A stretch of DNA of 64,000 nt from Candidatus Moraniibacteriota bacterium (GCA_028688415.1 JAQTYF010000001.1:144627-208626); one strand, 5' to 3'. Shown: positions 7,079-21,090, counted from the stretch's first letter. Notes: generated from the letters alone by a model not told the origin. Made by a program: numbers and translations.

Positions 7079-8506
7079 ATGATGACACAAGATTTCAAGA
7101 AAGACGTTCGATTCGATAAGAAAATGCTCATAATCGGTGGTGGATTTATCGGACAAGGAGTCTTGCCTCTCATACTGAAACATATCGATATCAAGCCAGA
7201 GCAGATATCAATCATCACTGCTGACGAACGAGGCAAAGAAACAGCTGCCTATTACGGTATACCGTTTTCTATCAATCCGATTTCCAAAGAAAATTATCGA
7301 GAAGTACTTGATCCACTTCTCTCTCCTGGAGATTTCTTGCTCAATCTCTCATCTGATATAGAGAGTACGCTTATCGTGGATTTCTGTAGCGAACGAGGGA
7401 TACTCTATCTCGATACTTGTATCGACTCATGGCTTGGAGAAAGTACCAACCCAGCACTTTCTGTTTCACAGCGATCTCTCTACAAATTGCGAGAACAAGC
7501 TATCAAGCTCAAAGAGAAATGGGGGAATACAAATGCTACTTCGGTACTCGCTCACGGAGCCAATCCTGGTATTGTATCGCACCTCGTGAAACAAGCACTT
7601 CTCAATATTGCAAAAGATGAAGGAAGAGATGTAGTCATCCCACAAACGAGAGAAGAATGGGCACGCCTCTCCCAATCACTCGGGATCCGGGCTATCCATG
7701 TCGCAGAGCGTGATACGCAGATTCCTACAGAACGAAAAAAAGTAGGTGAATTCATCAATACCTGGTCTATCGATGGATTGGTCGGTGAAGGACTCCAGCC
7801 AGCAGAGCTCGGATGGGGATCGCATGAGAAACATCTCCCTGTCGATGGGAGTAGACACACGTTTGGTGATCAGTCTGCTATCTATTTGAACAAACCAGGA
7901 GCATCAGTACGTGTCCGCACCTGGCTCCCTCTCGCTGGTCCACAGATCGGATATCTCATCACACACAATGAAGCTATTTCCCTCGCGAGTTATCTGACTC
8001 TCGGAACAGGGGAGAATCCAGAATATCGTCCGACAGTACACTATGCTTATCACCCTTGTGATGATGCGGTACTTTCGATTACAGAACTCGAAGAATCCAA
8101 TTGGAAAATTCAGGAACAAAAACGATCGATCACTGATGAAATTGTTTCGGGTATAGATGAACTCGGTGTTCTCTTGATCGGGAACAAACAGGGTGTGTAC
8201 TGGTTCGGATCACGACTCGATATCCATACTGCACGACAGCTCGCGCCATACAATTCTGCGACATCACTGCAGGTAGCTGCCGGTGTCGTAGCGGGGATGA
8301 TATGGGCGATGCGTCATCCAGAGAGTGGGATAGTCGAAGCAGAAGAAATGGATTTCAGAGAAGTGCTCGATATTGCTAGTCCATACTGGGGAGAGCTCGT
8401 CGGCGAATACAGTGATTGGGATCCGACGATAGGACGGAACACCCTTTTTCCCGAAGATATCGATACAGAAGATCCCTGGCAGTTCAAGAATTTCCGCGTA
8501 GTATAG
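7079..8506 (+). CDS. hss: homospermidine synthase (saccharopine-dehydrogenase-like NAD enzyme)
   Basis: 475 aa; N-terminal Rossmann motif MLIIGGGFIGQGVLPLILKH and overall length/organisation match bacterial homospermidine synthase. GC (~50%) clearly above neighbours. Confidence 0.65.
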   Translation: MMTQDFKKDVRFDKKMLIIGGGFIGQGVLPLILKHIDIKPEQISIITADERGKETAAYYGIPFSINPISKENYREVLDPLLSPGDFLLNLSSDIESTLIVDFCSERGILYLDTCIDSWLGESTNPALSVSQRSLYKLREQAIKLKEKWGNTNATSVLAHGANPGIVSHLVKQALLNIAKDEGRDVVIPQTREEWARLSQSLGIRAIHVAERDTQIPTERKKVGEFINTWSIDGLVGEGLQPAELGWGSHEKHLPVDGSRHTFGDQSAIYLNKPGASVRVRTWLPLAGPQIGYLITHNEAISLASYLTLGTGENPEYRPTVHYAYHPCDDAVLSITELEESNWKIQEQKRSITDEIVSGIDELGVLLIGNKQGVYWFGSRLDIHTARQLAPYNSATSLQVAAGVVAGMIWAMRHPESGIVEAEEMDFREVLDIASPYWGELVGEYSDWDPTIGRNTLFPEDIDTEDPWQFKNFRVV

Positions 8507-8534
8507 GCATTTATTGAGAATTTATAGAAAAGAA
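8484..8534. repeat. 51-bp perfect direct repeat, copy 1 (covers last 7 codons and stop of hss)
   Basis: ttcaagaatttccgcgtagtataggcatttattgagaatttatagaaaaga is identical at 8484-8534 and 10502-10552. Confidence 0.9.
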
Positions 8535-9161: not shown

Positions 9162-10460
9162 TTGAGGCCATTTTATTTTTTCGATAAATACTCTATACTT
9201 CAAACTATGCAAGTATCTCATTTCGAAAATATACTCGAAGGGAAGGGAGGGAAGTTCCTTTCCATACACTGTCCACATCTGCAGGTGTCGATTGCTTCTG
9301 TATGGTTCGAAGCTGGTTCGATATATGATCCTTTGGGCAAAGAAGGATTGGCACATTTTTTCGAACATTTGCTCTTGCAGAAAACAAAAAAAGAGCCTTC
9401 TCGAACACAGAGACTCTATACTCTCGAATCTCGTGGAATAGATTTTTACGCCTACACGAACAAAGACTCAGCTTACTATTACCATATTCAAGAACCAGAG
9501 AAAACAAAAGAAAGCCTCGGATTACTCGCGCTTGGTATTGCAGACTTCGTTTTCGATGAAACCGATATCGAGAAAGAGAGAAATGTGATTCTTTCAGAGA
9601 AAGACACGTATGATGGAAATCGGGATGAGAAAGTGTGGGATTTTCTCTTCGATGGTTTGTATCATGGAAGTGTTTTTGCTCATAATCCGTTCGGAGATGC
9701 CCATTCGATTAGTTCTATTACGAAAGAAGATATAGAAAAATTTTATCGAGAATACTATAATCTCGAGAACGCTGTGTGGGTCATTCTCTCTCCGCAAGTA
9801 TCTGGTGCAGATGAGAAAATACATCTTGAGGAAACCTTACGTCCTTTTGTTGATGCAAGCGAGAAAGTGTCAATCGATCATGATGCGAGAGAAACAATGG
9901 GAAGTGTCCATGATCAGAGGATAGTTGCCTCATCAGAAGATACATCATTTCTCGTAGCTGAAGCATTTCGTACGACGGATATTTTTGATCAAGAAAATAT
10001 TCTTCGTATCGATCTTCTCCGTTCTATCATCGCCTCTGGGTGGATTTCTTGGGCAAATAAAATACTACGTACCGAGAAAAGTCTCATCTATTGGGCACGC
10101 AGTGTTTTCAGTCAATTTCATGATAGGGGATATGTAGCTTTCCTCTTTGATGTGCAAAATTCTTCCAAGACTGAAGCCATCACCCTCTTCGACAGATTGA
10201 TAGAAGATTCGAAGGATATCGAAAAAATGAGTGAACATCTGGATGCACACAAGAACGCTTTTGCAACACGATTTCTCCGCGTGTATCATAACCCAGAAGA
10301 TCTCTTGTGGTGGTATGGATACCCTGCTTTATTTGGTATTGTCAAAGAGTCTCCCAAAGAATATTTGCATCAACTGAAACAATTGAAAGCAGAAGAGCTC
10401 GTTTCTGTCGCAGAAAAAACTTTTACGAAGGAAAAGAGGAGTGTCATAGAGATTAGTTAG
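9162..10460 (+). CDS. M16-family zinc peptidase (pitrilysin/insulinase-like), active-type subunit
   Basis: HFFEH inverted zinc-binding motif (HxxEH) near the N-terminus, plus downstream glutamate-containing region typical of M16. Alternative start at 9207 (MQVSHF). Confidence 0.75.
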   Translation: MRPFYFFDKYSILQTMQVSHFENILEGKGGKFLSIHCPHLQVSIASVWFEAGSIYDPLGKEGLAHFFEHLLLQKTKKEPSRTQRLYTLESRGIDFYAYTNKDSAYYYHIQEPEKTKESLGLLALGIADFVFDETDIEKERNVILSEKDTYDGNRDEKVWDFLFDGLYHGSVFAHNPFGDAHSISSITKEDIEKFYREYYNLENAVWVILSPQVSGADEKIHLEETLRPFVDASEKVSIDHDARETMGSVHDQRIVASSEDTSFLVAEAFRTTDIFDQENILRIDLLRSIIASGWISWANKILRTEKSLIYWARSVFSQFHDRGYVAFLFDVQNSSKTEAITLFDRLIEDSKDIEKMSEHLDAHKNAFATRFLRVYHNPEDLLWWYGYPALFGIVKESPKEYLHQLKQLKAEELVSVAEKTFTKEKRSVIEIS

Positions 10461-10501: not shown

Positions 10502-10552
10502 TTCAAGAATTTCCGCGTAGTATAGGCATTTATTGAGAATTTATAGAAAAGA
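10502..10552. repeat. 51-bp perfect direct repeat, copy 2
   Basis: Identical to 8484-8534. Confidence 0.9.
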
Positions 10553-12201: not shown

Positions 12202-12780
12202 ATGAATAATAAAGACGGATCAATTGATAATACAACTCTTTTTAAAAAATGTGATTTCTCAGATTTCAAGAAAGTACTTATTAGAATAAAACCGTCAGAA
12301 AGATTTGGAGGAATAGGCTTGTTTGCTATGAGGGATCTTGGAAAAGGGATGATGTTCGCAAAATGGGAACTTATGAATGAAGATCTTTTCTTTTCCTGGG
12401 ATGATTTTGAAAAAATTGATGAGGAATCCAAAGAAACTGTTCTGGATTTTTGTGCTGAGGCGGAAAATGGCTTCTATGCACCAACTGATATAAATTATAT
12501 ATCACTCCCTTGGCACATGAACCACTGTTGTGATGGAAACGTAGGATTTAATGAAAATGGTGATTTTATAACTATCAAAGACGTGAAAAAAGGAGAAGAA
12601 CTTTTCTATGATTATGGTTTGGTAATGTCGAATTCGAGATATAAGCTTGATTGTAAGTGCGGATCAGAAAATTGTCGAAAGATAATTACAGGTGATGATT
12701 GGAAAAATATCAATTTTCAGAAAGAAAATTATCAGTATATGTCTCCAGAAATAAAGGAGATGATAGATTCAATAAAATAA
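12202..12780 (+). CDS. SET-domain protein (putative protein-lysine methyltransferase)
   Basis: NHCCDGN (NHSCxPN motif), ELFYDYG (ELxxDY), and post-SET cysteines CKCGSENCRK. Confidence 0.7.
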   Translation: MNNKDGSIDNTTLFKKCDFSDFKKVLIRIKPSERFGGIGLFAMRDLGKGMMFAKWELMNEDLFFSWDDFEKIDEESKETVLDFCAEAENGFYAPTDINYISLPWHMNHCCDGNVGFNENGDFITIKDVKKGEELFYDYGLVMSNSRYKLDCKCGSENCRKIITGDDWKNINFQKENYQYMSPEIKEMIDSIK

Positions 12781-12787
12781 AAAAAAT

Positions 12788-14512
12788 ATGGATTTTAATA
12801 TAATTACGAACAGTGAGATTTGTATTGCGAATACACAACAATACTTAACAGGACTCGTCTATTATTCTCATTTTCCGATGATCATACTGTCTTTATTTTT
12901 TGGATTTTTTGTATTTTTAAAAAATAAAAGTTCGTTAGCGTCAAAATGTTTACTGGGTATTACGTTCTTCTTTTCTTTATGGCTTGTTTTTGATTTTATT
13001 TTGTGGAAAAGTAGCAATAGTAGTTTGCTTATGTTTTCTTGGGCTATACTAGGTGTATTTGAAGCACTCTTTTTCATTCTAGGTTTATATTTTATATATA
13101 CATTCATTGATAAAAAAGATGTTTCCAATAGTATAAAATTCATTTTTTTACTTCTTTCTTTGCCAGTTCTCTTTCTGACTCCAACGACATTTAACTTATC
13201 AAATTTTGATATCATAAATTGTGTTCCCGTTGAATCAGGGATATCTTTGGACTACGTTATTTCTTTGAAATTGATTATTTTATTGTGGATTTTTATTCTG
13301 TTGATAGTGAAATACCGGAAGCCTCCTGTAGACATATCAAGATTACAAATTTTTCTGTTAGGTTTAGGTATAATGTTGTTTCTATCTTCGTATTTTGTTT
13401 TGTCTTACGTTTCTGATTATTTGTACAATGCAGGTTATGAATGGGGGTATCAGGTTGAACAGGGTGGAATTCTCGCTATGGGTATTTTTCTTGGGTTTCT
13501 TAGTTATCTCATCGTTAAATTCAAGGCATTTGATATCAAACTGATCGGAGCACAAGCGTTGGTGTTAACACAATTTGCCCTTATTAGCTCAATGTTCTTT
13601 TTTGCCACGGTACTTATAAGTCGCGTCCTCATTGGAGTGACACTCTTTGGTACGACTATTGCTGGTTGGTATCTGATCCGATCAGTGAAGGCAGAAATCA
13701 AACGCAAGGAAGAGCTCGAAAAGATATCGCATACACTGATGGTGGCGAATGAACGATTGAAAGAGCTCGATGCCGCCAAATCAGAATTCATCTCTATTGC
13801 ATCACACCAGCTCCGTACACCGCTCACGGCTATCAAAGGTTACCTCTCACTCTTGCTCGAGGGCTCCTATGGGCCAGTCTCTCCTCAGGTACTCGATATT
13901 CTGAACAAACTCTACGGTGTGAACAATCGTCTCGTCCATCTCGTGGAGGATCTGCTCAATGTCTCTCGTATCGAAGCAGGGCGTATCCAATACAGTTTTG
14001 CTCCGACACAGATCGAGCCTATCCTCGTTGAACTCGTCGATATGTTCCTTTCTCCAGCTCAAGAAAAGAATCTGACTATTGATATCCATCTCTCCAAGCA
14101 TCCGCTCCCTCTCATCACGATGGATCCAAACAAAATCAAAGAAGTGGTGTCCAACCTCATCGACAATGCAGTGAAATACACCAAAGTAGGTGGTGTGACA
14201 GTCACACTCCAGAACACGCCTGAGGTCGCCCGTATCATCATCTCGGATACTGGTATCGGTATTCACGAAAGTGACAAGAAGAACCTCTTCCAGAAATTCC
14301 TTCGAAGCAAGGAAACAACGAAAATGGTAGTCTCTGGAGCGGGTCTCGGTCTCTACGTCGGCAAGAGTTTTATCGAAGCACACGGAGGCAAGATCTGGGC
14401 AGAATCCGATGGTCCAGATAGAGGCTCTCGCTTCATCATCGAACTCCCGATCAAAAACACTCATATTCAGATCGGTACGTCTGATGAACCTACTTCTGTC
14501 GAAAAAGAGTAA
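12788..14512 (+). CDS. membrane sensor histidine kinase (multi-TM N-terminus, HisKA + HATPase_c)
   Basis: H-box SHQLRTPLTAIKGYLSLL; N, G1 and G2 boxes (DNAVKYT, DTGIGI, GAGLGL). GC rises in the kinase-domain half. Confidence 0.85.
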   Translation: MDFNIITNSEICIANTQQYLTGLVYYSHFPMIILSLFFGFFVFLKNKSSLASKCLLGITFFFSLWLVFDFILWKSSNSSLLMFSWAILGVFEALFFILGLYFIYTFIDKKDVSNSIKFIFLLLSLPVLFLTPTTFNLSNFDIINCVPVESGISLDYVISLKLIILLWIFILLIVKYRKPPVDISRLQIFLLGLGIMLFLSSYFVLSYVSDYLYNAGYEWGYQVEQGGILAMGIFLGFLSYLIVKFKAFDIKLIGAQALVLTQFALISSMFFFATVLISRVLIGVTLFGTTIAGWYLIRSVKAEIKRKEELEKISHTLMVANERLKELDAAKSEFISIASHQLRTPLTAIKGYLSLLLEGSYGPVSPQVLDILNKLYGVNNRLVHLVEDLLNVSRIEAGRIQYSFAPTQIEPILVELVDMFLSPAQEKNLTIDIHLSKHPLPLITMDPNKIKEVVSNLIDNAVKYTKVGGVTVTLQNTPEVARIIISDTGIGIHESDKKNLFQKFLRSKETTKMVVSGAGLGLYVGKSFIEAHGGKIWAESDGPDRGSRFIIELPIKNTHIQIGTSDEPTSVEKE

Positions 14513-14575
14513 TCTATAGAATGAAATTATTGTTGATAGATAATATGAAATAAAGTTCTATATAATAGAAAATAT

Positions 14576-16603
14576 ATGAACATTTGTGATAATTTTGATA
14601 GGATTAGCACACTCTCTAATAGAGATTTAGTGTCGCGTGGAGCGCCGTATTTGTTCAGACTTTTTACTATTGCAATAAAAGAATTCTCAAGTTTGTTTTC
14701 TATTGCTGAAGACGATGAACAAAAATGTTTTTATTTTTATGTTAGTAAAGATAAAAACATAATATTTAAATCAAGTGCGGTTAGTTTTTCGTGCGATAGG
14801 TATATTATAAATGCAGATTCAAAACTTTTTGTTAGTGTAAAGAATGGTGCTTGGAGGACATTTAATTTTGATGATTTTAAGCACTTACTATTAATTATAA
14901 ATAAAAATTATAAAATAAATAAAGATTTTGACATTAATAATCAAATCAAAAAAGTTATCCAACAGACAAGATATTATATTTTTATAACGGAACGTGTCTT
15001 TGATACTAAAATAAACTTAAAGAGATATAGTCGAAATCATGATTTTTTTAGTGACTTACTTTTCAATTCACATAAACGGATTCTGGCTTTTTCATTGGTT
15101 GACGCTTTCGGTGTAACTTACGGACACTTAGATCACCCAACCCCATATCCGTATTCAAGTGGATTGAAACAAAGTCTATTGGGAGCTGATCCTTTTTTAT
15201 CATTTATTAGAGAGATGGATAAGATAATCAAATTGAATGATGACGAATTGAAGTCGATTATTAAAAAACCTGATGTCTTACAGAAGAAATTTGATGTATC
15301 ATCTAATGGAATTAGTCTGATTTTAGTGCCTAGATATTTCTTCGTGGAAGATGAACGCCTGCACCTAGAAGAAATCTCTTCAATCCTTAATTCTACAATT
15401 AAAAATCTTTACGGACGCGAGATTGATTATGATAAAAGTAAGAATTACTTGCTATTTATTCCTGAGATTGAGCGTGGTTTTGCATTATCGAGCAAGTCAC
15501 TTTTATTTCAGGAATGTAAAATATTATCAGAGAGTCTTTTTGGTATTTCCTCAAGTTCGGGAAGAAGCATGATTGTGCCTGTAGTTCTAGAAAATAATAA
15601 GAATAGTTTTCTATTCCTAAAAACATCATGGCCTGATATCATAAAGACAGCCTACAATAGAGGGTTGAGGATTAGTGTAGTTGAATGGTATTTGGTATGT
15701 TACGAAATCTTCAGCTCATTTTCGTCAAATGAGTTTGAATTTTTCTCGGAAGAAATCTTTAGTCCGATTTTAAAAGATCATGATGTAACAAAATATCTAA
15801 CTTTTATTTCAAGAAAACTTTTAATGTTAGAAAGAGATAAAAATGAATTCGTTTTGCCGCTAATAGGGTTGGTTGTTCCTAATCACGCATATCCTTTTGA
15901 TGAAACTCCTCTGGTTCATTTTATGAAGCTGAGTCAAAATCCAGAGCTATTCTTGAGATGTCTAGTAGACTGTATAACGAAAGCAATTATATCGCAGCTT
16001 CTCAGTAAGGGTGTTTATCATAGTTCACATCTTCAGAACTGTTGTATAATTTTCAAAAAAAATGGCAAAGACATCTTGCCAATAAAAGCCCTTTTAAGAG
16101 ATGGAGACATACGGGTTTGCGAAGATTATTCCTCATTACTTTCTATTGAGGAAATTAAGACAATTAGTAATTTGAGGAAAAAAAGAAATAAAATTTATCA
16201 TGAAAAAAAGTTTTATAAGCATCTTTTTCATAACATAATTAATGAAAACTTTGGTAATATTGAGCAGTGTTTATTGATAGATAACCAATTTTCATCAGAG
16301 TTTTTTTGGCGATTAGTCCGTTCTAGTTTTGAAGATGCAATCAAGAGGAATGTAAAAGTTTTGAAAACAAGGAATGAATATAGAAAAATTCACGGAGTTA
16401 TAGTAAAAAATTTTACGGAAACAGTTTTTAAGGGAAGCGGTTACTCAGTGAATTTTTTTCGAATGAGTTTTTTTGGAGTAAAGGAAAACTTTATTAAAGT
16501 ACACAATCCTTTTTTAGGAAGAAAATCTTTTGAATTATACACAGCCAGGAGTCAGAGTATTACGGATACAAAAACCAATGAAGAAGAGTCACTTCGTCTT
16601 TAA
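14576..16603 (+). CDS. hypothetical large protein (675 aa), very AT-rich
   Basis: Uninterrupted ORF at ~30% GC. C-terminal third contains SHLQN...LRDGDIRV, faintly reminiscent of IucA/IucC-type ligase motifs (unconfirmed). Confidence 0.5.
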   Translation: MNICDNFDRISTLSNRDLVSRGAPYLFRLFTIAIKEFSSLFSIAEDDEQKCFYFYVSKDKNIIFKSSAVSFSCDRYIINADSKLFVSVKNGAWRTFNFDDFKHLLLIINKNYKINKDFDINNQIKKVIQQTRYYIFITERVFDTKINLKRYSRNHDFFSDLLFNSHKRILAFSLVDAFGVTYGHLDHPTPYPYSSGLKQSLLGADPFLSFIREMDKIIKLNDDELKSIIKKPDVLQKKFDVSSNGISLILVPRYFFVEDERLHLEEISSILNSTIKNLYGREIDYDKSKNYLLFIPEIERGFALSSKSLLFQECKILSESLFGISSSSGRSMIVPVVLENNKNSFLFLKTSWPDIIKTAYNRGLRISVVEWYLVCYEIFSSFSSNEFEFFSEEIFSPILKDHDVTKYLTFISRKLLMLERDKNEFVLPLIGLVVPNHAYPFDETPLVHFMKLSQNPELFLRCLVDCITKAIISQLLSKGVYHSSHLQNCCIIFKKNGKDILPIKALLRDGDIRVCEDYSSLLSIEEIKTISNLRKKRNKIYHEKKFYKHLFHNIINENFGNIEQCLLIDNQFSSEFFWRLVRSSFEDAIKRNVKVLKTRNEYRKIHGVIVKNFTETVFKGSGYSVNFFRMSFFGVKENFIKVHNPFLGRKSFELYTARSQSITDTKTNEEESLRL

Positions 16604-16710
16604 TTTTTTGAGAATAAAGATAATTGATTAAAAAGCTAGATACGTAGAATTTTTTTTTGAGTTCCGGAAGGAGAAAGTAAGTTGTTAATATATTTTAATG
16701 AATCATTCCT

Positions 16711-17610
16711 ATGACCGAGCTAGAATCAATTAAAAAAATACGGTTTGTCCTTACGGATTTTTGTAATTATCAATGTAGATTTTGTCATAATGAAGGAACT
16801 CCAACAAAGAACACACGGTTTTTGGATAAGGAGAGTATTTTTTCGTTAACGAGTGTGGCTAAAGATTTAGGTATTAAAAAAATTACTCTAACAGGAGGCG
16901 AACCATTACTTCACCCAGAAATTGTAGCTATTGTAGACGGTATCAATGCTATATATCCAGAAGCTATCTTAGGGATGACAACTAATGGGATGTTATTTGA
17001 TAAAAATAAATTTGCTACGATTATTACTAATCTTAGTCGGTTACGTTTAAATTTTCAAAGTTTAGATGAAAAAGTTTTAAAATATATTTGTGGTAATGGC
17101 GCTAATATTAGTAAAGCGCTTTTGATGATTGATGACGTGAGGAAACTGAATCCTGATTTAAATATTTGTTTGAATTTTGTTTTAACAACTTATAACAAAG
17201 AATCACTTTCTGATGTTATAAAATTTGCAATTAAAAATAATCTAGATGTAAAATTGTTAGAGTATATGGCTCTCAATAAAGATCTTTATGTTGAAGTCAA
17301 ATATGCTAAAGATATATTAGAGTCTCTTCGACCTATTAAAAAGTATAAAGACTATCAGGACGATGATATTTATATGTTTACAGGATCTTCAAGTCGGATA
17401 CGTTTATGCTATTCATTTTGCAATGGTTTTAGATGTAAATCTTGTCGTGAATGTGGTGAAATTAGATTGGCACCAGGGTTAACCCTTAAGCACTGTTTTG
17501 ATGAGAGAATTGAAGAGGTTGATATTAGAAAAGAGTTGCTAGAACAGAATCTGGAATCAATAAAAAAGAAGATCATTTCAATTGATCAAATTAAGGGAAG
17601 ATTGCTCTGA
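16711..17610 (+). CDS. radical SAM enzyme, MoaA-like (GTP 3',8-cyclase family)
   Basis: CNYQCRFC (CX3CX2C) in TDFCNYQCRFC context like MoaA TDRCNLRCxYC; ITLTGGEPLL; MTTNGML; C-terminal CRECGEIRLAPGLTLKHC = CX2CX13C auxiliary-cluster motif characteristic of MoaA. Confidence 0.75.
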   Translation: MTELESIKKIRFVLTDFCNYQCRFCHNEGTPTKNTRFLDKESIFSLTSVAKDLGIKKITLTGGEPLLHPEIVAIVDGINAIYPEAILGMTTNGMLFDKNKFATIITNLSRLRLNFQSLDEKVLKYICGNGANISKALLMIDDVRKLNPDLNICLNFVLTTYNKESLSDVIKFAIKNNLDVKLLEYMALNKDLYVEVKYAKDILESLRPIKKYKDYQDDDIYMFTGSSSRIRLCYSFCNGFRCKSCRECGEIRLAPGLTLKHCFDERIEEVDIRKELLEQNLESIKKKIISIDQIKGRLL

Positions 17611-17664
17611 CACGTCTAGTTATTATATGATTTTAGAAATTTCTTTTCTAAAATAAAATTATTT

Positions 17665-18144
17665 ATGACCTCTGTATTTAAGAAGATATTTAACTATGAG
17701 GACGATCTCTCAGTATTCAAAGGAATAGATGCGAATAGAATTGCTTGTAATACGATAGTTTTGTGTGGTAATAAAATACTATTAGGTTGTCGGCGAAAGA
17801 AATATGCAAAAGGGATGTGGTGTTTGCCCGGTGGCCACTTAAACCTTGGGGAGAGTTTAGATAAATGTTTCTCTAGAGAACTTTACGAAGAAGTTGGTGT
17901 CGTCGGTAGTGGACAAGTTCCATTTTTGATAGTAGAAGAAGTTTCTGAAAAATATATATTTTATCACTTTTTTGCGTATTTAAGAATTAAAAGAAAACGA
18001 GCAGGTTGGTTTGTAAATAAAGAACCAAAAAATTTTTCTTGTTGGCTCCTTTTTGATTATAAAGATATTCCTGATGAAATGATTACATCTCATAGATTGG
18101 CTGCTGATTATCTTTTTTCGAAGAATCGTGTTATAAGAATATGA
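17665..18144 (+). CDS. Nudix hydrolase
   Basis: Nudix box GGHLNLGESLDKCFSRELYEEVGV (Gx5Ex7REUxEExGU). Confidence 0.75.
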   Translation: MTSVFKKIFNYEDDLSVFKGIDANRIACNTIVLCGNKILLGCRRKKYAKGMWCLPGGHLNLGESLDKCFSRELYEEVGVVGSGQVPFLIVEEVSEKYIFYHFFAYLRIKRKRAGWFVNKEPKNFSCWLLFDYKDIPDEMITSHRLAADYLFSKNRVIRI

Positions 18145-18216
18145 TGATTAGTTGGAAGGAAATTGTGTAGCCGATTGCTATCGTATAGAGTGATTGTCGC
18201 TTGTTATGTTGAAGAG

Positions 18217-19887
18217 TTATATTAATAAAGATAGTCTGGAGAGAACCCTGTCTTTCCCCATCGTTTGCATAATGGAATACAAGTCAGGGGTCTGTATTTT
18301 TCCTGTTAATAAAACTCGGAAGATCCTTGCTATATCCGTGATATTTCCTTTATATCTTTCTGGATTTTCCTTAAATATCTTCATATTTTCCGCATAATCA
18401 TGGGTTTTGGAAATTTTTTTTATTTTTTCAAACCACTCTTCTTTTGAGTCTTTTTCATTGTAGGATTTAATGAATGAATCTACTACTGTTTTGATGGTGG
18501 CAGAATCAATATTTGAAAGAAGGTGCACTGCAGTATCTTTTGTAATATTAAAATTTTGATCAAAGAAATACTCAATTTCTGTTCTTACATCAAACCATTT
18601 AGCAATATCTTTTCTACCACCTGTTCCACTATTTCTTTCTATGTTTAATATCTTTTTTGTATAATCAGCATCTTTTTTCATTGTTTTAGCAAGCTCTGGA
18701 TCATATTTGTTGGTCCAGCTTAAAGCTTTTTCATAAACTTCTTCAGCTGAATACCTTGCAATAATCCCTTTGCTCGTGTCATTTAGTTTATCAAAATCAA
18801 ATAGGGGACCGCTTGAGCCTGATAGTTTTTTTTGTGTCAGAAGGAATTCACGATTATTTTTATCTGGATTGGCCTTTCGCCAGTTTTCGAAATTTGAATT
18901 CGCTAAATTCAATAAGTATTCTATAACGGCATCTTCAGGGTATCCCTGTTCGGTGTAATATGCAACATTTGCTTCAGGGTCTTTCCTTTTGCTTAATTTT
19001 CTTTTTGAAGAATTCTCGATTTTCTGAATTGGAAATATATGTCCATATTTTGGAGCCTGCCATCCCATAGTTCTAAATAATTGTAAGTGTAATGGTAGCG
19101 AAGAAAACCATTCGTTTCCACGGATTACATGGGTAGTTCTCATTAAATGATCGTCAATGATATGAGCCATGTGGTAGGTTGGTAGACCATCAGATTTTAT
19201 TATTACCATATCTTGGTCATTTTCGGGTAACTCTCTGCCTCCCAATACAATGTCATTAACGAAAATTTTATTATTAATATTGCCACAAGATTTAAATCTA
19301 ATGACAAATTCTCTTTTTCCATCTAATGCTATTAGAATCTCTTGATCAGATTTATCGCGCCATTTCGCCCATTGTTGATAGTATCCAGGCTTAATGCCAC
19401 GAACCGCCTGTATTTTATGTATTTCCTCAAGTTCTTCGTTAGAGCTAAAGCATGGGTAGGCTAATCCTTTTTCTACTAGTAATTTCGCATAGGCCTGATA
19501 TATTTCTGTGCGTTTGCTTTGTTTGTATGGTCCGTAAGAGCCGATTTCTGTCCCTGAGGTTGTTTGTCCTTCGTCTGTGTTAATGTTGTAACTTTTGAGA
19601 GCGGAAGCAATCAGATTTGAAGCACCTTCGACTTCCCTCTTTTTGTCAGTATCTTCGATACGAAGATAAAAAACACCATCTGTCTGATGTGCCAATCTTT
19701 CAGATATTAGAGCAGTGTAGATACCGCCTATATGCATGAATCCCGTTGGACTAGGGGCAATTCGTGTCACCATTGCACCCTCCTTGAGTTTTCTAGGTGG
19801 ATATCGTTTTTCAATAGCCTCTATAGTTGGTAGTTGTTTAGGAAACAACTTCTCAAGAATCGTCCTTTTGTTTTTTTGATTGTTCAT
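18217..19887 (-). CDS. gltX: glutamyl-tRNA synthetase
   Basis: RIAPSPTGFMHIGG (HIGH), FYLRIEDTD, KLSKRK (KMSKS); 556 aa. Confidence 0.9.
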   Translation of the reverse strand: MNNQKNKRTILEKLFPKQLPTIEAIEKRYPPRKLKEGAMVTRIAPSPTGFMHIGGIYTALISERLAHQTDGVFYLRIEDTDKKREVEGASNLIASALKSYNINTDEGQTTSGTEIGSYGPYKQSKRTEIYQAYAKLLVEKGLAYPCFSSNEELEEIHKIQAVRGIKPGYYQQWAKWRDKSDQEILIALDGKREFVIRFKSCGNINNKIFVNDIVLGGRELPENDQDMVIIKSDGLPTYHMAHIIDDHLMRTTHVIRGNEWFSSLPLHLQLFRTMGWQAPKYGHIFPIQKIENSSKRKLSKRKDPEANVAYYTEQGYPEDAVIEYLLNLANSNFENWRKANPDKNNREFLLTQKKLSGSSGPLFDFDKLNDTSKGIIARYSAEEVYEKALSWTNKYDPELAKTMKKDADYTKKILNIERNSGTGGRKDIAKWFDVRTEIEYFFDQNFNITKDTAVHLLSNIDSATIKTVVDSFIKSYNEKDSKEEWFEKIKKISKTHDYAENMKIFKENPERYKGNITDIARIFRVLLTGKIQTPDLYSIMQTMGKDRVLSRLSLLI

Positions 19888-20010
19888 ATTTTATGCTATA
19901 ATTACTTGTCGAGGAATGTTGCAATGATAAGTTGTGTTTATTTTAGATTACATTAAATCCTTGAAAAGTAAAGCTTTGTTCTCGTAGAAGTAGAAATTAG
20001 TCTTATATGA

Positions 20011-20180
20011 GCAAGAGTTTCATCGAAGCACACGGAGGCAAGATCTGGGCAGAATCCGATGGTCCAGACAAAGGATCGCGATTTATCATCGAACTCCCGA
20101 TCAAAAACACTCATATTCAGATCGGTACCTCTGATCAACTAGCAGAAGCGAATGGCAGAGAAGTTGAAAAAGAAAAGTAA
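20011..20180 (+). pseudogene. remnant of a histidine-kinase 3' end (last ~45 codons), homologous to 14361-14488
   Basis: 128 bp ~92% identical to the 3' end of the HK gene; encodes SFIEAHGGKIWAESDGPDKGSRFIIELPIKNTHIQIGTSD with no upstream ORF (stops in frame). Confidence 0.7.
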
Positions 20181-20259
20181 CAGAAGTGAATTTGAAAGGG
20201 ATGTTTTGTTTTTTTCTTTTTTCTGGTAGTATATAGGTAAAGATATGTAATAAAAAAAT

Positions 20260-21090
20260 ATGCCAAAGATTCTTTTCGTCGAAGATGATCCATTTATTGC
20301 TGAAATTTATAAGAAAAAATTTGCGAGCTCTGGTTTTGATGTGCTCAATGTCATAACTGGGAAATCAGCACTCAAGGAAGCTCTCGAACAGAAATTCGAT
20401 TTGATATTGCTTGATCTCGTGATCCCAGAACTGAGCGGTACAGAAGTGCTTCGTGAATTACGTCACAATCCTGAATACGATCCGAATATGAAAATTGTTG
20501 TGTTCAGTAACCTGAGCTCACAAGAAGATCGTGATGAGTGTCTTGGTCTCGGTGCCAATGGATTTATCTCCAAGACAGAATTTTCTCCATCGGAAGTTGT
20601 CGTCGAAGTCAATCGCTTCCTGAGTCAATTCAGTGAACAGGCCAAGAATTCTGCTCGTTTCGAAAAACAAGGTACAGCAGAACATGAAGATGCTCCGGTA
20701 GTAGAGGGAAAAAAGATTCTCTTTGTTGAAGATGAGGCAGTGTTTATCGATATGTTTGGCAAGCGACTCCGAGATGAAGGATATGTCGTGACGACATGTC
20801 GTGACGGTGTCTCTGGACTACAGGCAGCACTTGATGGGACATTTGATCTCGTGATTTCAGATGTGATGATGCCAGGAATGGATGGTCGCGAACTCGTGAT
20901 GAAGTTGAAAGAAGCAGAATCAGAAAACAATACTCCGATATTTCTGTTCTCCGCATCACTCGACGATAGAGATGTTCAGGCACTTATTGATTCCAAGATT
21001 GCCGAGGGAGTATTTCTCAAGACACAAATCACTCCTAGTGAACTCACTTATGCCGTCAATGATTTTTTCAAGGAGCAATCAGAGAAATAA
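20260..21090 (+). CDS. response regulator with tandem receiver domains (REC-REC), no output domain
   Basis: Two CheY-like modules (ILFVEDD...LILLDLVIP and ILFVEDE...LVISDVMMPGMDG) with conserved Asp/Lys positions. Confidence 0.8.
   Translation: MPKILFVEDDPFIAEIYKKKFASSGFDVLNVITGKSALKEALEQKFDLILLDLVIPELSGTEVLRELRHNPEYDPNMKIVVFSNLSSQEDRDECLGLGANGFISKTEFSPSEVVVEVNRFLSQFSEQAKNSARFEKQGTAEHEDAPVVEGKKILFVEDEAVFIDMFGKRLRDEGYVVTTCRDGVSGLQAALDGTFDLVISDVMMPGMDGRELVMKLKEAESENNTPIFLFSASLDDRDVQALIDSKIAEGVFLKTQITPSELTYAVNDFFKEQSEK

What the first reader, a model, noticed from the sequence alone, without database searches (positions are those of the whole stretch)
14361..20180. Histidine-kinase 3' end duplicated 5.5 kb downstream as a remnant directly upstream of the orphan REC-REC regulator
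128 bp at the 3' end of the HK gene (14361-14488) recur at 20011-20138 with about 10 differences, most of them synonymous (GAT/GAC, GGC/GGA, TCT/TCG, CGC/CGA, TTC/TTT, ACG/ACC). The remnant has no upstream ORF. It sits where an HK gene would normally precede its response regulator. The synonymous pattern implies the remnant derives from a homologous but divergent HK allele under purifying selection, not from a decaying in-situ copy. This is consistent with a recombination that replaced or inserted the segment now holding the intact HK, the AT-rich island and gltX.
Basis: seen in the sequence. Interest (0 to 1): 0.65.

Follow-up and report, generated by a model that had tools for sequence, protein, structure and literature searches.

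The report
Kinase-gene stub left by an insertion
A 5.5-kb block of four genes was inserted between a sensor kinase gene and its partner regulator in an uncultured Moranbacteria genome, leaving a duplicated stub of the kinase's 3' end; relatives show this gap is a recurrent insertion site, so the stub is a real but fairly ordinary recombination scar.

Summary
Window 14361-14489 recurs at 20011-20139 (129 nt, 9 mismatches), and homology continues with in-frame indels to both stop codons. A second MAG has the same layout, and k=31 contigs from two sequencing runs carry the island|stub junction. An assembly artefact is therefore unlikely.

The stub is the displaced 3' end of the histidine kinase (HK) gene. 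In two relatives the HK sits 68-99 nt upstream of the same REC-REC regulator. In the window a 5.5-kb block separates them: a ligase with a siderophore-synthetase fold, a MoaA/viperin-like radical-SAM enzyme, a NUDIX hydrolase and reverse-strand gltX.

Seven of the 9 differences are synonymous (dN/dS 0.06). Six cluster in 16 nt between identical tracts, which points to allelic, mosaic sequence rather than in-situ decay.

Of 10 related lineages, 8 carry cargo in the HK-RR gap. Five of these hold 7 HK-3' stubs, some frameshifted or in tandem. No island encodes an integrase, and the stubs start at four different places.

The best reading is a homology-anchored, Campbell-type insertion at a hotspot. 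The anatomy resembles e14/icd-icdC, but no element-encoded integrase was found. I rate it a new member of a known kind, of moderate interest.

The parts
12788..14512 (+). Intact sensor histidine kinase gene: 574 aa, multi-pass membrane N-terminus, HisKA and HATPase_c domains
   Evidence: The ORF appears, and Pfam gives HisKA 3.9e-17 and HATPase_c 6.2e-25. Homologs of 560-580 aa cover 96-100% of it, so the 363-aa public gene call is a truncated start. Upstream SET-HK synteny is shared with L089.
14361..14512 (+). Copy A: the 3' end of the intact HK. The ungapped repeat is 14361-14489, followed by tail A to the stop codon.
   Evidence: Tail A (EPTSVEKE) matches the family consensus tail.
14419..14434 (+). 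16-nt patch holding 6 of the 9 differences (the counterpart in copy B is 20069-20084), flanked by identical 47-nt and 44-nt tracts
   Evidence: clustering P = 0.004 if any site may vary, and P = 0.0005 if only third codon positions vary.
14513..20010 (.). Inserted 5.5-kb cargo block with low GC3 (0.22-0.29). No recombinase, tRNA gene, terminal inverted repeats, or phage/plasmid match.
   Evidence: The block is absent from the HK-RR gap of L006 and L086, and different cargo occupies that gap in other relatives.
14576..16603 (+). ORF675: predicted ATP-dependent ligase with the NIS (IucA/IucC-type) siderophore-synthetase fold
   Evidence: No hit in NCBIfam, PHROGs, PADLOC or PDB sequences; Pfam gave only a sub-threshold FhuF match (E 0.0024, 18.8 bits against a cut-off of 25.2). 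Only 8 homologs exist among 5.8e9 proteins. The AF2 model has pLDDT 78 and pTM 0.83. Top Foldseek PDB hits are SbnC, IucA, DesD and AcsD at E 1e-14 to 1e-10.
16711..17610 (+). Radical-SAM enzyme, MoaA/viperin-like (below family cut-offs)
17665..18144 (+). NUDIX hydrolase
18217..19887 (-). gltX (glutamate-tRNA ligase), the only copy in the window
   Evidence: TIGR00464 scores 304.5 bits, above its cut-off. tblastn finds no second copy in the window.
20011..20180 (+). Copy B: the displaced HK 3' stub. The ungapped repeat is 20011-20139, followed by tail B to the stop codon. It reads as a 57-aa ORF from an ATG at 20007 created at the junction.
   Evidence: The ORF is annotated 'hypothetical protein' in both MAGs.
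20181..20259 (+). Native HK-RR spacer carrying a motif conserved upstream of the regulator in relatives (GATATGTAAYAAAAAAAT-ATG). Inferred to be the regulator's own promoter/5' region.
   Evidence: the same motif is present in the window, L087, L213 and L089. The promoter function is an inference.
20260..21090 (+). REC-REC response regulator, the conserved partner of the HK
   Evidence: Pfam Response_reg in two stretches, 2.3e-41. The regulator lies downstream of the HK in all 10 lineages, and the HK and RR identity matrices are broadly congruent.

Best explanation
The stub at 20011-20180 is the displaced 3' end of the histidine kinase gene. It is a scar of a 5.5-kb insertion into the kinase-regulator operon.

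Ancestrally the HK stop codon lay about 70-100 nt upstream of the REC-REC gene. Incoming DNA carried its own allelic copy of the last ~150 nt of an HK gene plus cargo (NIS-synthetase-like ligase, radical-SAM enzyme, NUDIX hydrolase, gltX). It recombined with the resident HK 3' end. The most likely route is a single homologous (Campbell-type) crossover by a circular intermediate, or a related homology-anchored event after DNA uptake.

That reaction duplicates the homologous segment. One copy keeps the HK ORF intact. The other copy stays attached to the native spacer and the regulator, which appears to have its own promoter region and so tolerates the separation.

The crossover or heteroduplex lay inside the repeat. 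This explains why the two copies are identical over 47-nt and 44-nt tracts and strongly but synonymously diverged in a 16-nt patch and in the tail.

The HK 3' end/HK-RR gap is a recurrent insertion hotspot in this Moranbacteria group, where successive insertions can stack up stubs.

What is shown: the duplication, the ancestral adjacency, the hotspot, the synonymous mosaic pattern, and the lack of a recombinase in the island. What is inferred: the circular intermediate, RecA-type recombination, the direction of transfer, and the regulator's promoter.
For: - Repeat and frame-preserving tails.
- Same layout in two MAGs, and both junctions present in raw-read k-mer contigs from two runs.
- Ancestral adjacency: the HK-RR gap is 68 nt in L006 and 99 nt in L086.
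- Hotspot: 8 of 10 lineages carry unrelated cargo in the gap. The cargo is PNP in L089; radical SAM plus methyltransferase in L217; an AbiEii module in L219; MNT-HepT in L222-226 and L227; radical SAM plus Bro-N in L087; and an 8-kb block in L213.
- Seven HK-3' stubs occur in 5 lineages. They always lie between cargo and the regulator, or between two cargo units. Two loci have tandem stubs, and some stubs are frameshifted or carry a stop codon.
- dN/dS is 0.064 (P = 5e-4 under neutrality, P = 0.012 under in-situ decay), and the differences are clustered.
- Stubs from foreign allele types: L087 rem1 and the L222 stub carry a PMEGDG-type insertion. Only 2 of 120 intact HKs have such an insertion, and their own HKs do not.
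- No integrase, transposase, tRNA gene or terminal inverted repeats in the window island. ORF675 is a ligase fold, not a recombinase.
- Pfam domain lists for the gap genes of relatives show only one rve-domain (IS-type) gene, in L213, and no tyrosine or serine recombinase.
- Stub 5' boundaries fall at four places: G70/K71, F73, D88-K89 and F92. The related Bro-N-like cassette in L087 and L213 has the same boundary, and each stub resembles its own genome's HK. This fits a boundary set by the cassette.
- Published precedent: single crossover of a circular molecule with the chromosome gave duplications of 109-950 bp flanking the insert (PMC3240628).
Against: - No circular form, donor genome or empty-site allele was found. 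The nearest HK homologs are only ~61-73% identical in protein.
- A simple reciprocal crossover predicts differences along the whole repeat. The identical tracts therefore need heteroduplex repair or later gene conversion, which is an additional assumption.
- Three insert-bearing relatives (L089, L217, L219) have no detectable stub or flanking repeat. Either not every insertion uses this route, or stubs get deleted.
- The stub boundaries cluster at two spots with a loosely similar purine-rich motif (GGCAAGAG, GAYAARGG). That could instead indicate a sequence-specific enzyme acting in trans.
- gltX is normally essential and single-copy, which makes it odd cargo.
- I did not inspect read-level support.
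Confidence: 0.6

Rival explanations
1. Site-specific integration of e14/phage-21-into-icd type. A recombinase, encoded elsewhere in the genome or on a lost part of the element, inserts elements into a defined site in the HK 3' end. Each element carries a replacement 3' end, and the native end is displaced to the far side.
For: The anatomy is the same as icd/e14/icdC: an intact target gene running into the insert, a C-terminal pseudogene fragment at the other end, and mostly synonymous differences. The site is reused in many lineages, with tandem stubs. Two boundary clusters occur. G70/K71 is shared by the window and L222. D88-K89 is shared by L087 rem2, L213 and L227 remA.
Against: No tyrosine or serine recombinase was found in the window island (direct family searches). 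None appears in the gap genes of the 7 insert-bearing relatives, judged from their precomputed Pfam lists. The only rve gene is an IS-like gene inside the L213 island. ORF675 is a ligase fold. The stubs start at four different positions, and there is no identical core at the junctions. The island has no phage or plasmid relatives, and no HK-3' fragment of this family was found in viral contigs (best match 40% identity).
Confidence: 0.17
2. Homology-facilitated illegitimate recombination, or another illegitimate or replication-template-switch event, after uptake of linear DNA. The conserved HK 3' half served as the one-sided homology anchor, and the other end of the incoming DNA joined illegitimately inside the resident HK 3' end.
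For: The boundaries are variable. There is possible short, decayed similarity just 5' of the junction: GTCT-TA in both the window stub and L087 rem1, against GGTCTCTAC in the HK. The mosaic of donor-like and resident-like tracts resembles transformation outcomes (abstract of PMC13344027, listed). A second insertion in the window is also flanked by a duplicated gene 3' end, without a recombinase.
Against: The outcome predicted for HFIR is a deletion of recipient DNA. In the one study read, the flanking duplications were attributed to single crossover by circular molecules (PMC3240628). Microhomology at the window junction is not clear-cut. All stubs are 170 nt or shorter, which random illegitimate joints would not predict unless longer repeats are lost secondarily.
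Confidence: 0.13
3. The stub is a functional element retained by selection: a translated 57-aa peptide, a leader/regulatory RNA for the regulator, or a silent donor cassette for gene conversion of the HK tail.
For: The ORF is intact, with an ATG at the junction. Substitutions are synonymous-biased. Each RR-proximal stub stays 87-93% identical to its own genome's HK 3' end, whereas the L087 and L213 stubs at the same junction are only 73% identical to each other. That is compatible with ongoing gene conversion.
Against: Stubs in relatives are frameshifted (L222), carry an in-frame stop (L227 remA), lack start codons, or are absent altogether. There is no Rfam match and no excess RNA structure. 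A fragment covering HATPase_c positions 80-110 is unlikely to fold on its own (inference).
Confidence: 0.05
4. Assembly artefact or strain chimera. The true state would be a plain HK-RR operon, with the 5.65-kb segment located elsewhere or circular.
For: A k=31 graph cannot distinguish the integrated state from 'empty site plus 5.65-kb circle', and the Logan contigs break inside the repeat.
Against: The island|stub junction and the tail A|island junction are both present in read-derived contigs from two runs. Two MAG assemblies give the same phasing. The longest exact shared tract is 47 nt, which is well within read length. Analogous stubs occur in unrelated assemblies from ENA, JGI and Logan.
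Confidence: 0.03

Closest known systems
e14 / phage 21 integration into icd of E. coli K-12, leaving the icdC pseudogene (Hill, Gray & Brody 1989, PMC210168; described in PMC13626634)
   Same: In both cases an insert sits in the 3' end of a protein-coding gene. The gene stays intact because its end is duplicated, and the displaced C-terminal fragment lies at the far end of the insert. The two copies differ mainly by synonymous or conservative changes. Recombination between the two copies can regenerate a chimeric gene.
   Different: e14 is a prophage with its own site-specific recombination system and a fixed attachment site. Here no recombinase is encoded in any of the islands examined, stub boundaries vary, and the cargo is metabolic and housekeeping genes, including gltX.
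Campbell-type single-crossover integration of a circular DNA carrying a short homologous segment (for example the 109-950 bp lacZ duplications in PMC3240628)
   Same: Both give a direct duplication of the homologous segment on either side of the insert, with no dedicated recombinase. The duplication length is set by the homologous fragment on the circle.
   Different: That example is a laboratory plasmid case. Here it is a natural event in an uncultured CPR bacterium. The circular intermediate is hypothetical, and the mosaic of identical and diverged tracts needs extra repair or conversion.
Homology-facilitated illegitimate recombination in naturally transformable bacteria
   Same: Both use a one-sided homology anchor next to foreign DNA, and both acquire DNA without mobile-element genes.
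   Different: HFIR is expected to delete recipient sequence, not duplicate it (PMC3240628). No clear junction microhomology was seen here. Competence of these Moranbacteria was not tested.
Genomic islands accreting in tandem at tRNA/tmRNA gene 3' ends (my own knowledge, not tested here)
   Same: Both involve repeated use of one gene's 3' end. Each insertion displaces the previous 3' fragment, which produces arrays of cargo separated by gene-end fragments. L087 and L227 show this pattern.
   Different: The target here is a protein-coding histidine kinase, and no integrase accompanies the islands.

Membership tests
Two-component system operon (HK with its cognate response regulator) | HisKA plus HATPase_c kinase, and a REC-domain partner | tested here: met
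   Pfam hits.
Two-component system operon (HK with its cognate response regulator) | Conserved adjacency or co-occurrence of the two genes in relatives | tested here: met
   The HK is followed by the orthologous REC-REC gene in all 10 lineages. The two genes are directly adjacent in L006 and L086. The identity matrices are broadly congruent.
Integrase-mediated island/prophage integration into a gene 3' end (e14/icd type) | The target gene's 3' end is duplicated on both sides of the insert, and the target ORF is kept intact | tested here: met
Integrase-mediated island/prophage integration into a gene 3' end (e14/icd type) | The element encodes a tyrosine or serine recombinase next to an att site | tested here: not met
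   Pfam, NCBIfam, PHROGs and PADLOC searches of the window island ORFs found none. The ORF675 fold is an NIS synthetase. For relatives, only precomputed Pfam lists were read, and they show none.
Integrase-mediated island/prophage integration into a gene 3' end (e14/icd type) | One fixed crossover point or identical core in independent insertions | tested here: not met
   Stub 5' boundaries fall at G70/K71, F73, D88-K89 and F92. The partial clustering at two of these spots leaves some doubt.
Campbell-type (single homologous crossover) integration | Direct repeats flanking the insert that equal the homologous segment and are long enough for homologous recombination | tested here: met
   129 nt ungapped, and about 150-170 nt including the tails. 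The published range is 109-950 bp.
Campbell-type (single homologous crossover) integration | A circular intermediate carrying one repeat copy plus the cargo | not testable with these tools
   This needs read-level or outward-PCR evidence. The k=31 contigs are compatible with it but not diagnostic.
Homology-facilitated illegitimate recombination | Short microhomology at the illegitimate joint, and loss of recipient sequence | tested here: inconclusive
   Only a weak GTCT..TA similarity lies 5' of the joint. The outcome here is a duplication, not a deletion.
Transposon / insertion sequence | Transposase, terminal inverted repeats and a short target-site duplication | tested here: not met
   The block has no transposase. 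No terminal inverted repeats were found. The duplication is 129 nt or more.
Integron-like cassette array | An integron integrase and attC-type imperfect inverted repeats ending each cassette | tested here: not met
   No integrase was found. The repeated unit is a coding-sequence fragment without excess secondary structure.
cis-regulatory RNA / leader of the regulator | Conserved sequence and structure upstream of the gene in relatives | tested here: not met
   No Rfam hit reaches threshold. The folding z-score is -0.02. The stub is absent from L006, L086, L089, L217 and L219.

The most novel reading that the evidence does not exclude
The conserved 3' end of this histidine kinase gene may act as a portable attachment site for integrase-less gene cassettes in Moranbacteria. 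In this reading, units made of cargo plus an HK-3' fragment excise as circles by recombination between the HK end and a stub. They then re-insert into the HK end of other lineages, either by homologous recombination or through an unrecognised trans-acting enzyme that recognises the GGCAAGAG/GAYAARGG region. Cassettes would stack up in tandem like an integron without an integrase. The stubs could also feed back on the HK tail by gene conversion.
Probability: 0.15. Interest if true: 0.7.

Novelty: new member of a known kind. Interest (0 to 1): 0.38.

Why it matters
For this genome, the result corrects three points of annotation. The 57-aa 'hypothetical protein' is a pseudogene fragment. The 'orphan' REC-REC regulator has a partner 5.7 kb upstream. 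The kinase is 574 aa, not 363.

More generally, it shows how a streamlined, uncultured CPR bacterium acquires genes, here including an aminoacyl-tRNA synthetase, without any visible mobile-element machinery. The insertion goes into a conserved two-component operon that relatives reuse as an insertion site. The stubs are datable markers of successive insertions and of allele exchange between lineages. If the cassette-by-homology idea holds, it would be a simple route for gene flow in organisms thought to be poor in mobile elements.

Tried and rejected
- Exact look-up of the 574-aa HK found nothing, because the public gene call is the 363-aa version.
- The genome-contig scan with the regulator gave only one true relative (L006). 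The other 79 loci were generic REC proteins.
- The metagenome contigs and viral-contig scans with an HK C-terminal alignment used patterns that were too generic. They returned only distant kinases (55% identity or less) and no phage-borne HK fragment.
- I tested whether the kinase's AT-rich N-half and GC-rich C-half mark a chimera. I rejected this as specific evidence, because the same GC3 asymmetry occurs in relatives.
- I looked for inverted repeats, tRNA genes, promoter or terminator excess, and phage or plasmid similarity in the island. Nothing was informative.
- I looked for flanking repeats or degenerate stubs in L089, L217 and L219 and found none.
- I tested whether ORF675 could be a novel recombinase. 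I rejected this, because its fold is that of an NIS synthetase.
- I could not fetch the 9756-bp Logan contig that probably holds both an ORF675 homolog and a gltX homolog, because the look-ups were exhausted.
- A literature search for CPR genomic islands or integration hotspots found nothing on this locus.

Full report
**1. Observation**

Window 14361-14489 and 20011-20139 form an ungapped direct repeat of 129 nt with 9 mismatches, 5650 nt apart. It is the longest repeat in the window.

Copy A is the end of an intact histidine kinase (HK) ORF at 12788-14512. The ORF is 574 aa with HisKA and HATPase_c domains. Homologs of 560-580 aa align over 96-100% of it, so the 363-aa public gene call uses a truncated start.

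Copy B reads as a 57-aa ORF (20007-20180) that matches only the last 30 positions of the HATPase_c profile.

The homology does not stop at 14489/20139. Both copies continue in frame to a stop codon through a diverged tail. Tail A is GTSDEPTSVEKE* and tail B is GTSDQLAEANGREVEKEK*. The net length difference is 18 nt. Both look like the variable tails seen across the HK family.

Upstream of copy B there is only the non-coding region in front of reverse-strand gltX. The REC-REC gene starts 79 nt downstream of copy B's stop codon.

**2. Is it an assembly artefact?**

The window comes from a Candidatus Moranbacteria MAG. The 57-aa, HK and regulator proteins are on record on a 939-kb contig, and also on a second assembly, GCA_028699965.1.

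That second contig has the same gene order and differs from the window at one base in 20 kb, at position 21007 inside the regulator gene.

Logan k=31 contigs from two runs stop exactly 30 nt from the nearest copy-specific base:
- L001 starts at 20099.
- L003 covers 14449-20051.
- L004 covers 17708-20051.

These contigs contain both unique junctions, tail A to ORF675 and gltX-upstream to copy B.

A k=31 graph cannot by itself tell the integrated layout from an empty site plus a 5.65-kb circle. However, the longest exact tract shared by the copies is 47 nt, so ordinary reads and larger k values can phase them. Two assemblies agree on the phasing. I could not look at the reads themselves.

**3. 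What the surroundings are**

Between the copies lie four genes:
- ORF675 (14576-16603).
- A MoaA/viperin-like radical-SAM gene (16711-17610).
- A NUDIX gene (17665-18144).
- gltX on the reverse strand (18217-19887).

The block has GC3 of 0.22-0.29, against 0.52 for the HK C-terminal half and 0.37 for the regulator.

ORF675 had no hit in NCBIfam, PHROGs, PADLOC or PDB sequences. Pfam gave only a sub-threshold FhuF-like match (E 0.0024, below the curated cut-off). It has only eight homologs in the 5.8-billion-protein collection. Its AlphaFold model (pLDDT 78, pTM 0.83) matches NRPS-independent siderophore synthetases such as SbnC, IucA, DesD and AcsD at E 1e-14 to 1e-10. It is therefore a ligase, not a recombinase.

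The block has no integrase, transposase, tRNA gene or terminal inverted repeats, and no similarity to known phages or plasmids beyond conserved parts of gltX.

**4. Relatives**

HK orthologs are at most about 61-73% identical in protein. Ten distinct lineages could be read.

| Lineage | Content of the HK-RR gap | HK-3' stubs |
|---|---|---|
| L006 | none (68 nt) | none |
| L086 | none (99 nt) | none |
| L089 | nucleoside phosphorylase, reverse strand | none detected |
| L217 | radical SAM + methyltransferase | none detected |
| L219 | 88-aa ORF + AbiEii | none detected |
| L222-226 | MNT-HepT | 1 |
| L227 | MNT-HepT, a 114-aa ORF, an extra REC gene | 2 (remA, remB) |
| L087/L088 | radical SAM + 244-aa ORF, then a Bro-N protein | 2 (rem1, rem2) |
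| L213 | 8 kb, including an IS-type rve gene and a radical-SAM/peptidase set | 1 |
| window | ORF675, radical SAM, NUDIX, gltX | 1 |

L089 shares the upstream Sacchrp_dh...SET-HK synteny with the window. The HK is therefore in its ancestral place, and only what follows it is new.

**5. Stubs elsewhere**

A tblastn scan of all fetched loci with HK C-termini found seven HK-3' fragments in five insert-bearing lineages:
- Window: one stub.
- L087: rem1 at 14289-14447 and rem2 at 15467-15556.
- L213: one stub at 19040-19132.
- L222-226: one stub at 12526-12663.
- L227: remA at 12484-12573 and remB at 13029-13109.

Each stub lies either directly upstream of the regulator's spacer or between two cargo units.

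Some stubs are clearly dead. The L222 stub is frameshifted, and L227 remA has an in-frame stop codon.

The 5' boundaries differ:
- G70/K71 (GGCAAGA...) in the window and L222.
- F73 in L087 rem1.
- D88-K89 in L087 rem2, L213 and L227 remA.
- F92 in L227 remB.

L087 rem1 and the L222 stub carry a PMEGDG-type insertion. Only 2 of 120 intact HKs have such an insertion, and their own HKs do not. These stubs therefore come from a different HK allele lineage.

L087 rem2 and the L213 stub follow a homologous Bro-N-like gene end at the same boundary. That cassette is 86% identical between the two loci, whereas their core genes are 73-78% identical. Each stub is 87-92% identical to its own genome's HK end, but the two stubs are only 73% identical to each other. 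This pattern fits either independent insertion of related cassettes or concerted evolution by gene conversion.

**6. Nature of the differences in the window**

Over 42 codons there are 7 synonymous and 2 conservative changes, giving dS 0.32, dN 0.02 and dN/dS 0.064. The probability of 7 or more synonymous changes out of 9 is 5e-4 if both copies evolved neutrally. It is 0.012 if the intact gene took only synonymous changes while the stub decayed freely.

The frame-preserving tail indels point the same way. Most of the divergence therefore arose while both sequences were parts of working kinase genes.

The divergence is not uniform, however. Six differences sit within 16 nt (14419-14434), between identical tracts of 47 and 44 nt. 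The clustering gives P = 0.004, or P = 0.0005 if only third codon positions may vary. Locally saturated synonymous change next to perfect identity indicates mosaic ancestry. Either the recombination joint or heteroduplex lay inside the repeat, or the copies have been partly homogenised since.

**7. Mechanism**

What is shown:
- Ancestral HK-RR adjacency.
- Insertion of a compositionally distinct block.
- Duplication of the last ~150 nt of the HK, so that the ORF survives.
- Recurrence of the same anatomy in relatives, with different cargo.
- Absence of a recombinase gene in the window island (direct family searches), and none in the precomputed Pfam lists of the relatives' gap genes.

A direct duplication of a homologous segment on both sides of an insert is the expected product when a circular DNA carrying that segment integrates by a single crossover. 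Duplications of 109-950 bp arose this way in a plasmid-chromosome system (PMC3240628). I consider this homology-anchored route the most likely. It needs no element-encoded enzyme, it makes the stub boundary a property of the cassette, and the HK catalytic end is highly conserved among lineages.

The integrase model (e14 into icd, leaving icdC; PMC13626634) has the same anatomy. It fails two tests here: no integrase was found, and there is no single crossover point. A trans-acting enzyme is still not excluded, because the boundaries cluster at two purine-rich spots.

One-sided homology with an illegitimate joint is a further possibility, but in the study read its predicted product was a deletion, and the flanking duplications there came from single crossovers of circles.

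The regulator keeps a conserved upstream motif (GATATGTAAYAAAAAAAT-ATG) in the window, L087, L213 and L089. I infer that it has its own promoter, which would explain why splitting the operon is tolerated.

A function for the stub itself is unlikely. There is no Rfam hit and no excess RNA structure, and the stub is dead or absent in relatives.

**8. Comparison and novelty**

The finding works like the icd/e14/icdC arrangement and like tandem island accretion at tRNA genes. It cannot be filed as an integrase-borne element.

It is a new natural example of a known kind of scar, a target-gene-end duplication flanking an insertion. Three features are worth noting:
- The host is a CPR bacterium.
- The target is a two-component operon that 8 of 10 lineages have used as an insertion site.
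- The cargo in this genome includes gltX.

I found no paper describing this locus.

**9. Verdict**

Interest is moderate (0.38). The scar itself is ordinary. The integrase-less hotspot with stacked stubs deserves a systematic survey.

Noticed in passing
window 8483-8533 and 10502-10552: A perfect 51-nt direct repeat. It consists of the last 24 nt of the Sacchrp_dh-like ORF 7079-8506 (..FKNFRVV*) plus 27 nt downstream. It recurs on the far side of a ~1.97-kb block that holds a 92-aa reverse-strand ORF, a Gly-rich 39-aa ORF and the M16 peptidase gene (9162-10460). In relative L089 the Sacchrp_dh gene is followed directly by the membrane-protein homolog, so this is a second insertion flanked by a duplicated gene 3' end. 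It too has no recombinase, and the perfect identity suggests it is recent.
   Followed up: partly
window 14576-16603: ORF675 belongs to a very rare family: 8 homologs in 5.8e9 proteins, with no curated-family hit. Its predicted fold matches NRPS-independent siderophore synthetases (IucA/IucC, SbnC, DesD). Such a ligase is unexpected in a CPR genome. It sits next to a MoaA/viperin-like radical-SAM gene and a NUDIX gene.
   Followed up: partly
window 18217-19887 (gltX) and 14576-16603: A gltX homolog (P0143, 67% identity) and an ORF675 homolog (P0250, 42% identity) are each recorded on a Logan contig of exactly 9756 bp. They are probably on the same contig, so the ORF675..gltX linkage may pre-date the insertion. 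The closest named gltX relatives are labelled Pacebacteria (68-69% identity), not Moranbacteria (62%).
   Followed up: no
window 12788-14512, and the HK genes of L087, L213, L217, L219: The HK C-terminal half has much higher GC3 than the N-terminal half: 0.52 against 0.31 in the window, 0.59 against 0.33 in L087, and 0.63 against 0.38 in L219. It is also higher than the locus average. The asymmetry is family-wide. It may reflect frequent recombination of the catalytic half, but it remains unexplained.
   Followed up: partly
window 12788-13420: The public annotation starts the HK at an internal codon (363 aa) and calls a 115-aa ORF on the opposite strand. The full 574-aa ORF, with a multi-pass membrane sensor region, is supported by full-length homologs.
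   Followed up: yes
window 20181-20259; L087 15560-15724; L213 19136-19263; L089 ~13130-13202: A conserved motif lies just upstream of the REC-REC start codon (..GATATGTAAYAAAAAAAT-ATG, preceded by a T-rich tract). It is likely the regulator's own promoter/5' UTR.
   Followed up: partly
HK-RR gaps of L219, L222-226, L227, L087, L213, L217: The cargo at the hotspot is dominated by toxin-antitoxin modules (AbiEii; MNT-HepT twice), radical-SAM enzymes (three relatives plus the window), a Bro-N protein, and a peptidase/aminotransferase set. The gap therefore behaves like a small accessory or defence island.
   Followed up: partly
window 21007: This is the only difference between the two MAG assemblies over 20 kb (G in the window, A in the other). 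It falls inside the response regulator gene, and the two assemblies record regulator proteins that differ in sequence.
   Followed up: partly
L222 compared with L217, L219 and L227: The HK core of L222 is closest to L217/L219 (85% identity), but its regulator is closest to L227 (82%). This mild incongruence is consistent with recombination breakpoints falling in the HK-RR gap.
   Followed up: no
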